From: Eledone cirrhosa
Lineage: Eukaryota
Assembly: GCA_964016885.1 (NCBI GenBank)
Contig: OZ024751.1
Coordinates: forward strand, 46,562,001 to 46,626,000
DNA: 64,000 bases
Reading direction: 5' to 3'
Shown here: one piece after another, positions 37,487 through 63,243 of the stretch
How the letters are laid out: the number at the start of each line of letters is the position of its first letter
Numbering within the stretch: position 1 is the first letter of the stretch
Notes under the pieces: generated by a model
The model's input: the letters and a program-made list of their open reading frames with translations, nothing else
Database searches by the model: none
Told to the model about the DNA's origin: nothing
Program-made: the position numbers and the translations under genes

Positions 37487-37939
37487 GAAATGAATGAAGT
37501 AATTCCGCCGGAAAAGTCCAGGAAAAAAGAGTACTCTATGTAGGTAACAGAGCTTAATAGTTATGTAATAAACAACATAAGGCAATTATTTCATTTACCA
37601 GTGGTTAAACCACTGGTAAATGAAATAATTGCCTTATGTTGTTTATTACATAAATATATATATATATATATAAATGGAAAAAATGAAACGAAATATATAT
37701 GTATATATATATCGTAATAATAAATGTGAAGACTAAAATCCTAAGAGGGCTCGATAAGGATTATATATATATATATATATATATTGTTATACTTTGGGAA
37801 GGTCATGTTGCCAATAAGAAACACACGCACCAGTTGCTTTCACTTCAATTTAATTTATTATATATTTATAAATTTACAAATTTATAAATTTCTGGTTGGT
37901 TGGTTGGTTCCACAACCAGATAGTTGTTTATATATATAT

Positions 37940-50738: not shown

Positions 50739-51159
50739 AAAGTTTTATTTAAAATTGTTGGGTTACAACAAATAAATATTTTATAACTGATATAAAGTAC
50801 TCAACAAGTTTTGGAGTAGATATACGATATTAAACAAATGGAAACTATATTTATAAAACCATATTTATTTCATTATACATATTTCGGGGGATACCATATT
50901 AAAAATATGGCATGCCTTCTTCAGATAAAATACAATATATAAACAGTTTTATAAATAATTTTGACGTACCATAAATATTGATCAACTTTTATGTAAGTAG
51001 TTGATCAATATTTATGGTACGTCAAAATTATTTATAAAACTGTTTATATATTGTATTTTATCTGAAGAAGGCATGCCATATTTTTAATATGGTATCCCCG
51101 AAATATGTATAATGAAATAAATATGGTTTTATAAATATAGTTTCCATTTGTTTAATATC

Positions 51160-55355: not shown

Positions 55356-55542
55356 CGAAGGAAATGTGGTAAGGAACCAGGTGGACCATAACGCACCAAA
55401 GTACTCAATACTTAGGGTAGTAGAGTGGGTAATAGGAACCAGTAAGACCCCGACGGCTGAGCTCAAGCCGTTTCGACGGCTAATTCTGCAGAATTAGCCG
55501 TCGAAACGGCTTGAGCTCAGTCGTCGGGGTCTTACTGGTTCC

Positions 55543-55621: not shown

Positions 55622-56488
<867 letters not shown>

Positions 56489-61460: not shown

Positions 61461-61608
61461 CTCAAATTCAAGATTTCTTGTTGGAGAAGACCCGTGTTAT
61501 TCAACAAGGTTGCGGAGAAAAGAACTTCCATATATTCTACTACATGTTTGCTGGTATGACAAATAACGAACTGAGTGATTATTTTCTCAAATCACCTGAG
61601 AATTTCAG
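61461..61608 (+). CDS. Myosin-motor gene exon 5 (AQIQDFLLEKTRV...EKNFHIFYYMFAG...ENFR)
   Basis: TTTTCAG acceptor and GTGTGT donor; 148 nt, phase 1/2; LLEK.RV and E.NFHIFY motifs. Confidence 0.95.
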
Positions 61609-62407: not shown

Positions 62408-62714
62408 GTTGGTGTTGGTATTGGTATTGGTTTTAATATTGTTGTTGGTGTTGGTGTTGATGTTGGTATATCCTATGTTCAAAGACATTCCAACCATGAA
62501 AATCTAGTATTTTATGAAGACATAGTCTACCTAGGACTACATTATTCAATGTACTCTAGAGTCTAGAGTACATTGAATAATGTAGTCCTAGGTAGACTAT
62601 GTCTTCATAAAATACTAGATTTTCATGGTTGGAATGTCTTTGAACATAGGATATACCAACATCAACACCAACACCAACAACAATATTAAAACCAATACCA
62701 ATACCAACACCAAC
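62408..62714. repeat. 153-bp inverted duplication of flanking intron DNA abutting the hAT MITE
   Basis: 62408-62560 is the reverse complement of 62562-62714, with a single central G at 62561. Confidence 0.95.
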
Positions 62715-63021
62715 GTGATTCTCAACGTGGTCCAGGTGGACCACCGGTGGTCCACATTGCATTTCTAGTGGTCCACAGAGAATTCGTAGCCATAAAAAAA
62801 TTGTAGCCATTTCACAAAAATGTAACTAATATAATATTTTGTTTAATTACACACATGTCCATTATATTTGAAAATTTCGAGTTCACAGCTCTGATACTAT
62901 GGGTATGTGGTTAGAATGTCTCTAGCAGTTCTATTACAAAAGATTTAAAAGTTTAGGTGGTCCACAGGAAAAAATTACTTATTTTGGTGGTCCACAGCAA
63001 ACAAAAGGTTGAGAACCCCTG
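62715..63021. mobile_element. hAT (Charlie-like) MITE with damaged left end
   Basis: Right end GTTGAGAACCCCTG versus left [CA]GTGATTCTCAAC; repeated subterminal GGTGGTCCAC; right flank CTCTAGAC fits the NTCTAGAN target consensus. Confidence 0.8.
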
Positions 63022-63243
63022 CTCTAGACTATAATTCTTCCCTAAAATCAGAGACTTTGTAACTTTGTTAAAAATACGACATATTTTATAGTTATTTTAG
63101 TTGATGGTTGTTTTTTTAAAATTATTTATATTGTATAAAGTACCAGTCACGCACTGGGGTCGATTTAATCGACTTTCCCCTCCTCCCAAATTGTTGGCCT
63201 TGTGCCTATATAAGAAACCAATATTTATATTGTACTTATACAG

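What the first reader, a model, noticed from the sequence alone, without database searches (positions are those of the whole stretch)
62408..63029. Fossil of a hAT transposase hairpin intermediate: 153-bp palindrome with the diagnostic central base
Seen: the MITE's right flank is CTCTAGAC. On the left the sequence reads CTCTAGA-G-TCTAGAG followed by the flank inverted over 153 bp, then the left TIR lacking its terminal bases. Known: hAT transposases (Hermes, Ac, Tam3) nick one base into the flank and seal a flank hairpin. For a CTCTAGAC target this gives exactly CTCTAGA+GTCTAGAG, and off-centre opening yields inverted duplications as in Tam3 nivea alleles. Inference: an abortive single-end cut was repaired by opening the hairpin ~150 nt away and rejoining it to the element. 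Identical arms suggest a recent event and an active hAT.
Basis: partly seen in the sequence, partly recalled or inferred. Interest (0 to 1): 0.75.

Follow-up and report, generated by a model that had tools for sequence, protein, structure and literature searches.

The report
Transposase hairpin scar beside retained transposon
A perfect 153-base mirror repeat sits against one end of a small jumping DNA element, centred exactly where its class of enzyme seals cut DNA into a hairpin; six other copies in the genome show the same scar, so these are likely leftovers of failed, one-sided attempts to cut the element out.

Summary
Observation confirmed: arms 62408-62560/62562-62714 are 153/153 complementary around one G, next to a 309-bp Buster-type hAT MITE that lacks its first CA and keeps an intact right TSD (CTCTAGAC). 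Short-read contigs of one public sample hold the centre with its G. Six more elements show the same one-sided scar (arms 6-18 bp); in 7 of 7 the centre is the complement of the last TSD base, the published signature of hAT flank hairpins, and the element is still there. The MITE is a hybrid (left end of one autonomous family, right end of another, transposases 35% alike); 4 of its 49 copies are scarred, all at the left end (versus 1 of about 80 in the other family; p 0.07-0.15, not significant). Best reading: one-ended cleavage, hairpin opened 3' of its tip, rejoined to the element; full excision with copy-back from the sister remains open, and a distal nick cannot be told from snap-back synthesis. 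'Recent, active hAT' is unsupported: no intact cognate transposase found, and perfect palindromes are common in this genome. Known chemistry, unusual recurring outcome. Two look-ups of earlier scan notes showed no such scar.

The parts
62408..62560 (+). Original left flank, left arm of the palindrome (end of a GTTGGT-type satellite plus an old dispersed repeat fragment at about 62472-62557)
   Evidence: continuous with the satellite to its left; other copies of the repeat fragment about 76-84% alike, and the four fetched are not self-mirrored at this point
62554..62560 (+). Bases 1-7 of the left target-site copy (CTCTAGA); the eighth base C is missing
   Evidence: matches right TSD 63022-63028
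62561..62561 (+). Central G, complement of the last TSD base; inferred hairpin tip
   Evidence: present in contig of X7; same rule at six other loci
62562..62714 (-). Inverted copy of the flank, 153 nt (a very long P-nucleotide arm)
   Evidence: exact 153-nt contig in X8
62715..62880 (+). MITE left part: left end of autonomous Buster-type family A, first two bases CA lost; no microhomology at the joint
   Evidence: 88-99% to nt 1-168 of 2.2-2.7 kb elements L079-L084, L225-L234; joint
62879..62922 (.). About 44-bp piece of a very high-copy repeat joining the two halves of the MITE
   Evidence: summed contig depth about 700,000 at 62882-62907; absent from families A and B
62923..63021 (+). MITE right part: right end of Buster-type family B (ends GTTGAGAACCCCTG)
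   Evidence: 94-98% to nt 211-309 in L220, L183, L144, L151, L071, L171; B transposase 34-35% identical to A
63022..63029 (+). Intact right target-site copy CTCTAGAC
61461..61608 (+). Context: myosin motor-domain exon; the scar lies 0.8 kb downstream, likely in an intron (next exon not identified)
   Evidence: Pfam Myosin_head E 2e-12; AG and GT borders

Best explanation
The 153-bp palindrome is centred on the hAT flank-hairpin register and is likely the repaired product of a transposase cut made at the left end only, after which the opened hairpin was likely rejoined to the element that never left. Steps: (1) shown: a hybrid Buster-type MITE sits in a CTCTAGAC target; (2) from established hAT chemistry: nick one base into the flank and attack on the other strand seal the flank as CTCTAGA-GTCTAGAG; (3) inferred from the centre base: the hairpin was opened on the 3' side of its tip, because a 5'-side opening would put C in the centre and replication through the hairpin would give C or G equally, and 7 of 7 scars show the complement; (4) inferred, two routes not separable by sequence: the 154-nt extension came either from a nick about 150 nt down the stem or from a tip-proximal opening, resection and snap-back synthesis; (5) inferred: end joining to the free left tip of the MITE, losing CA, then fill-in of the other strand. 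The right end and right TSD stayed intact. The mismatched ends of the hybrid MITE may favour such one-ended cuts (4 of 49 copies, all at the family-A end), but that enrichment is not significant.
For: Register at the window. Six further loci with element retained, no TSD on the scarred side, and centre = complement of the far TSD's last base: L009 (A, arm 10-12), L072 (C, arm 6 plus 19-nt filler), L137 (A, arm 18, element lost 34 nt), L071 (T, arm 6-7, right end), L073 (A, arm 17), L075 (G, arm 12-13, TIR lacks CA, far TSD damaged). The search pattern left the centre free; chance for those six centres 3e-4 by base composition, 1/64 if C-or-G type orientation were random. Short-gap pattern: 12 hits, control 0. 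L009 and L137 were found among BLAST hits of the MITE, not by the pattern. Joints lie within 0-2 nt of the element tip in 6 of 7. Two weaker candidates (L069, L088) also have the complement. Contigs hold the centre. [quoted passage not shown]
Against: Transposases are described as acting only when both ends are synapsed (PMC6900584, passage), and full excision with copy-back predicts the same sequence. The pattern searches demanded a nearly whole TIR, so the clustering of joints at the tip is partly selected (in the junction-anchored census of 49: three within 2 nt, one at 34 nt). The arm is far longer than the 20-nt maximum quoted for yeast and is the only long perfect one among 33 of 38 long-gap hits examined, where the control pattern gave 21 hits. 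The arm-to-MITE joint has no listed contig and no long read; no empty or ancestral allele was seen; three RAD runs do not cover the locus. Hybrid versus family B: Fisher p 0.069, or 0.15 without the window copy.
Confidence: 0.65

Rival explanations
1. Both ends were cut and the element left; the right flank copied the TSD and element back from the sister chromatid or homologue (one-sided gap repair) and was then end-joined to the left flank, which carried its opened hairpin.
For: Keeps two-end synapsis. Explains the perfect far TSD in 6 of 7 scars and the 1-4 nt microhomologies at L009, L071, L075 and L137 and the 34-nt loss at L137. Abortive gap repair is a known source of Ds elements (recalled, not read).
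Against: Copying has no reason to stop at the element tip, yet 3 of 4 scars in the junction-anchored census and 6 of 7 overall join within 2 nt of it; truncated hybrid copies (L138, L169, L248, L030, L027) showed no hairpin centre in the test. The window joint has no microhomology.
Confidence: 0.2
2. The hairpin was made during the original insertion: after strand transfer and filling of 7 of the 8 gap bases, the still-bound transposase re-attacked the left joint.
For: Gives the same letters; needs no later transposase, which fits the lack of an intact cognate gene; scars occur at several percent of copies.
Against: The MITE has 3 private substitutions in 307 nt but the arms have 0 in 153, P about 0.05 if equally old; weak, because arms may be homogenised.
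Confidence: 0.07
3. Sister-chromatid (alternative) transposition: two left ends were cut, the two left flanks fused at the footprint, and an end reinserted 153 bp away.
For: Known for Ac to give inverted duplications with a footprint at the centre (bioRxiv 10.1101/2020.01.07.897926, passages).
Against: It predicts an intact TIR against a new TA-centred target; 0 of 7 scars have TA at positions 4-5 next to the element against 93 of 96 ordinary TSDs, 3 of 7 TIRs are shortened, and the centre is never the direct base.
Confidence: 0.04
4. A transposase-independent fold-back or template switch at the self-complementary TCTAGA, one of this genome's many palindromes, or an assembly artefact.
For: 15 other palindromes with arms of 30 bp or more in the window and loci; fold-back inversions of 5-34 bp form at ordinary breaks (PMC11724301, abstract).
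Against: Fold-back needs a nearby inverted microhomology and would not fix the switch between TSD bases 7 and 8 in seven different sequences; short-read contigs carry the centre; the arm is local flank, not a palindromic MITE.
Confidence: 0.04

Closest known systems
hAT excision footprints with P-nucleotides (Ac/Ds in yeast, Candida, Arabidopsis; PMC5873905, passages read)
   Same: Palindrome centred on the complement of the base next to the transposon; microhomology or filler at the joint.
   Different: There the element is gone and the two flanks are joined; arms reach at most 20 nt in yeast. Here the element and far TSD remain and one arm is 153 nt.
TcBuster and the Buster branch of hAT (PMC3499496 and PMC12637253, passages read)
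   Same: 8-bp nnnTAnnn TSD, short TIRs, 2.5-kb autonomous elements, hairpin-type repair.
   Different: Data there come from plasmid excision in cells; the passages seen report no one-sided scar with the element retained. The element here is a two-family hybrid MITE.
Ds with an adjacent 598-bp inverted repeat in Arabidopsis (PMC1978519, abstract and passages)
   Same: A long inverted repeat directly beside one TIR of a retained hAT element, explained by a hairpin.
   Different: There the repeat lies inside the target duplication and is proposed to come from the previous site by a distal cut; here it is local flank and its centre is the TSD itself.
Tam3 nivea alleles with inverted duplications, such as niv-525 (recalled, about 200 bp; not found in searches, nothing read)
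   Same: Long inverted duplication of flank from off-centre hairpin resolution.
   Different: As recalled, an excision product of a plant Ac-type element in a laboratory line, not a recurring fixed scar beside retained animal MITEs.
V(D)J coding-end P nucleotides and fold-back inversions at breaks (PMC6900584, PMC3299998 passages; PMC11724301 abstract)
   Same: Flank hairpin opened 3' of the apex; synthesis at one end and end joining at the other.
   Different: Resembles a coding end joined back to its own signal end (open-and-shut joint, recalled), with a far longer P arm.

Membership tests
hAT superfamily, Buster branch (the MITE) | 8-bp target-site duplication with central TA | tested here: met
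   36 of 49 hybrid copies have a TSD with at most 1 mismatch; 93 of 96 perfect TSDs in this and related families have central TA
hAT superfamily, Buster branch (the MITE) | Short imperfect TIRs beginning CAG | tested here: met
   CAGTGATTCTCAAC / CAGGGGTTCTCAAC
hAT superfamily, Buster branch (the MITE) | Ends shared with an element coding a Buster-type DDE transposase | tested here: met
   Left end from 2.2-2.7 kb family A, right end from family B; homologues named SCAND3-like, ZBED5-like, FAM200B-like, one with PF05699 (that these names are Buster-derived is recalled); D, D, CxxH, RW, E motifs visible (motif names recalled). Pfam gave only DUF659 below cut-off and PDB searches no hit.
hAT superfamily, Buster branch (the MITE) | Tree placement with TcBuster or SPIN | not tested
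   No reference sequence of TcBuster or SPIN was fetched
hAT hairpin-derived P-nucleotide footprint | Palindrome centred on the complement of the flank base next to the element | tested here: met
   7 of 7 strict scars, 2 of 2 weaker candidates
hAT hairpin-derived P-nucleotide footprint | Element excised and the two flanks joined (classical footprint) | tested here: not met
   Element and far TSD are retained; so it works like a footprint but is not a classical empty-site footprint
hAT hairpin-derived P-nucleotide footprint | Dependence on transposase and a hairpin-opening nuclease | not testable with these tools
   Needs a cell assay
Sister-chromatid (alternative) transposition product | Intact TIR inserted at a new target with its own duplication | tested here: not met
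   0 of 7 with TA-centred target at the joint; 3 of 7 TIRs shortened
Palindromic (fold-back) MITE insertion | Arm sequence is a repeat that is mirrored at its other copies | tested here: not met
   Arm is local satellite plus an old repeat found at about 80% identity, not mirrored in the 4 loci fetched
Currently active hAT | Intact cognate transposase gene or polymorphic insertions | tested here: inconclusive
   All close copies scored are broken (83 of 2909 candidates scored); more distant Buster frames of 551-605 aa without stops exist at 32-38% identity; no allele data

The most novel reading that the evidence does not exclude
hAT transposases routinely cut one end of an element without the other in an animal germline, most often when the two ends come from different families, and each failed cut can write a new palindrome of up to 150 bp into the genome beside a transposon that never moved; genomes then hold a countable fossil record of uncoupled cleavage and of how hairpins are opened.
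Probability: 0.3. Interest if true: 0.7.

Novelty: new variant of a known kind. Interest (0 to 1): 0.5.

Why it matters
The chemistry is known, but the outcome is not the textbook empty-site footprint: the element stays and only one flank is scarred, and it recurs (4 of 49 copies of this MITE). That gives a sequence rule (seven TSD bases, the complement of the eighth, inverted flank, TIR) that can be counted in any assembled genome. It makes two questions testable from genomes alone: whether the two ends of a hAT element are always cut together in vivo, and how far from the tip germline hairpins are resolved. It also names a source of new perfect palindromes, here 307 bp in a likely myosin intron. 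No effect on the gene was tested.

Tried and rejected
Long-gap pattern (31-200 nt): 38 hits against 21 control; 33 examined, only the window has a long perfect arm; L088 is an older 37-bp, 86% candidate with 139 nt of other sequence before the TIR, not counted; 5 hits not fetched, three of them a duplicate-looking copy of L088. Broader TIR pattern for other hAT families: 22 hits, none a convincing scar, mostly ordinary TSDs or tandem TCTAGA sites. Of the 12 short-gap hits, 5 are scars, L069 is ambiguous and 6 were dropped: L070 and L078 have matching or 1-mismatch TSDs, L077 a matching TSD, and for L068, L074 and L076 no far end was found. Eleven family-A right ends showed no scar. Runs X1 and X2 (other organisms by label) hold only the MITE family, and RAD runs X9-X11 do not cover the locus; small word shares were not used as evidence. 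A genome search with the 27000-27148 palindrome arm returned nothing, not even itself, so it is uninformative. Pfam and PDB did not name the transposase; the protein atlas gave no answer. Reconstruction of the empty site from the old repeat gave only a hint (TTCTTCCCT follows in both L033 and the right flank). Dating by arm identity rejected as weak. Ten paper searches found no report of recurring one-sided hairpin scars beside retained hAT elements in an animal genome; the library lacks most subscription journals, three key papers were not held (PMC6212770, PMC4105704, PMC321453), and no supplements were opened, so rare products of this kind may be in print.

Full report
Observation. The window holds a perfect palindrome: arms 62408-62560 and 62562-62714, 153 nt each, one G between them. 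The centre reads CTCTAGA-G-TCTAGAG. The right arm runs straight into GTGATTCTCAAC at 62715; the element ends GTTGAGAACCCCTG at 63021 and is followed by CTCTAGAC. The left arm is ordinary local DNA: the end of a GTTGGT-type satellite that continues leftwards, plus a fragment of an old dispersed repeat whose other copies are about 76-84% alike and are not mirrored in the four loci fetched. A myosin-head exon lies 0.8 kb upstream, so the structure is likely intronic. Closest named homologues of the transposase are from Octopus species.

Is it in real DNA? Contigs from one public sample carry it: a 61-nt contig over 62531-62591 with the G and no mismatch (30 letters on each side, one short of the tool's bridging rule, and the longest a one-base loop can give if the contigs were built from 31-letter words, which is my inference), an arm contig at depth 15 against 10 for the centre, and in a second run a contig of exactly the 153-nt arm. 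Limits: the arm-to-MITE joint is in no listed contig, the right flank has no cover, that sample may be the source of the assembly, and three RAD runs from other samples miss the locus.

The element. BLAST gave 40 loci and a pattern on its internal junction 49 copies, all examined: 36 have an 8-bp TSD with at most one mismatch, 4 have a left-side hairpin scar (three flagged by the script; L072 was missed because of a one-base loss in its right TIR and was read by eye), 9 are truncated or otherwise altered. Among 96 perfect TSDs of this and related families 93 have central TA, the Buster pattern (PMC3499496, passages). The MITE is a hybrid: nt 1-168 are the left end of a 2.2-2.7 kb family A, nt 211-309 the right end of family B, joined by a 44-bp piece of a very abundant repeat. 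The A and B transposases are 34-35% identical; A's homologues are annotated SCAND3-like, ZBED5-like and FAM200B-like, names I recall as Buster-derived. All close A copies scored have stops or frameshifts (83 of 2909 candidates scored); L080's 521-aa frame lacks a start.

The decisive test was whether the register repeats. A pattern with a free centre base (TNTARA-N-TYTANA, 1-30 nt, TIR) gave 12 hits, control 0. Five are scars, one is ambiguous, six were dropped. With L137, found among the BLAST hits, there are six scars besides the window: L009 (far TSD GTTTAGAT, centre A), L072 (GTTTAGAG, C), L137 (ATCTAAAT, A), L071 (GTCTAGAA, T), L073 (GTCTAAAT, A), L075 (damaged, ending TAGAC, G). Every centre is the complement of the last TSD base; chance 3e-4 by composition for these six. 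Arms are 6-18 bp; four joints show 1-4 nt of microhomology and one has a 19-nt filler. Two weaker candidates obey the same rule: L069 and L088, the latter with 37-bp arms at 86% identity, so such scars can also be old. Among 33 of 38 long-gap hits examined the window has the only long perfect arm. A pattern for other hAT termini gave 22 hits and no convincing scar. In the first 100 listed of 172 exact right ends, all examined, 19 are hybrids and about 81 family B, with one B scar (L071). Hybrid against B: 4 of 49 versus 1 of 80 as computed, p 0.069; without the window p 0.15. So enrichment in the hybrid is a lead, not a result.

Mechanism. Published work states that hAT enzymes cut the non-transferred strand first and seal the flank as a hairpin (PMC6900584, passages), that cleavage is at the nucleotide flanking the insertion (PMC1978519, passages) and that footprints are centred on the complement of the base next to the element, with arms up to 20 nt in yeast (PMC5873905, passages). 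The one-base offset for Hermes itself is recalled; the primary papers were not held. For a CTCTAGAC target the hairpin strand reads CTCTAGA-GTCTAGAG, as seen. My inference: opening 3' of the tip leaves G in the centre, opening 5' of it leaves C, and replication through the hairpin would give either; 7 of 7 complements (1/64 for the six non-window cases) point to 3'-side opening, the side used by Pso2 and Artemis (PMC3299998, passages). How the arm reached 153 nt is open: a distal nick in the stem, or a short overhang that snapped back after resection and primed synthesis, as described for fold-back inversions joined by end joining (PMC11724301, abstract only). The element's tip lost CA with no microhomology.

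One end or two? Joints within 2 nt of the tip in 6 of 7 scars suggest the tip was a physical break end, hence a one-ended cut (about 0.65). Full excision with copy-back from the sister gives the same letters and respects two-end synapsis (about 0.2); it should scatter joints through the element, which the census of 49 does not show, but numbers are small and the pattern searches favoured whole TIRs. A re-attack at the time of insertion is possible (0.07). Sister-chromatid transposition (bioRxiv 10.1101/2020.01.07.897926, passages) is disfavoured: 0 of 7 joints have a TA-centred target. A transposase-free fold-back or artefact is disfavoured by the fixed register and the contigs. That the palindrome comes from a transposase-made hairpin by any route I put above 0.9.

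Age. The window MITE has 3 private substitutions in 307 nt; equally old arms would differ at about 3 sites, P(0) about 0.05. But this genome has many near-perfect palindromes: 6 others in the window and 9 in fetched loci, with arms 99-100% alike while sister copies of the same repeats are 70-96% alike. Arms may be kept alike here, or many palindromes may be young. With no intact cognate transposase found, 'recent and active' is not supported.

Novelty. The hairpin chemistry and P-nucleotide rule are known. Ten searches found no report of recurring one-sided scars beside retained hAT elements in an animal genome; the nearest is a 598-bp inverted repeat beside a Ds in Arabidopsis with a different layout, and Tam3 alleles that I recall but could not read. 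Older subscription papers and supplements were not seen and may hold such products. Earlier scan notes list other palindrome-making processes in this genome but not this scar. Verdict: real, a new variant of a known kind, interest 0.5.

Noticed in passing
window 27000-27297, 26139-26374, 37561-37653, 50887-51099, 55457-55520, 55948-56097; L047, L092, L108, L122, L159, L179, L213, L221, L251: Many near-perfect palindromes (arms 31-255 bp). For three tested, arms are 99-100% alike while other copies of the same repeat are 70-96% alike; several end at a (TA)n run on one side. Suggests arm homogenisation or another frequent palindrome-making process.
   Followed up: partly
window 62715-63021 and 48 other copies: The MITE is a chimera of two Buster families with 35%-identical transposases, joined by a piece of a very high-copy repeat, yet it spread to 49 sites with clean TSDs.
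   Followed up: yes
L088 (G000:C1:303916078-303919267, minus strand; similar hits on C921): Older candidate scar: 37-bp arms at 86%, centre A, far TSD CTCTAAAT, then 139 nt of other sequence before the TIR.
   Followed up: partly
L013, L177, L217: One or two bases lost exactly at a TSD-TIR joint with the other side intact; may be short end-joining scars of the same process, not counted.
   Followed up: no
window 26097-28079: Large inverted-repeat element with long (TA)n interior; the 26139-26374 palindrome is part of its left side.
   Followed up: no
G000:C1:87823702, C4:6752363, C19:28260035, C1:365469860: Distant Buster-type frames of 551-605 aa without stops (32-38% identical to family A); candidates for intact or domesticated transposases.
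   Followed up: no
L027: Hybrid MITE copy whose 41-bp subterminal unit has expanded into a tandem array, replacing the left end.
   Followed up: no
L006, L029, L180, L182, L238; L017 and L197; L169, L187, L190, L239: Different Buster elements sit at the same position of shared flanking repeats, suggesting target hot spots inside repeats.
   Followed up: no
window 61461-61608: Myosin motor-domain exon (Pfam Myosin_head, E 2e-12).
   Followed up: partly
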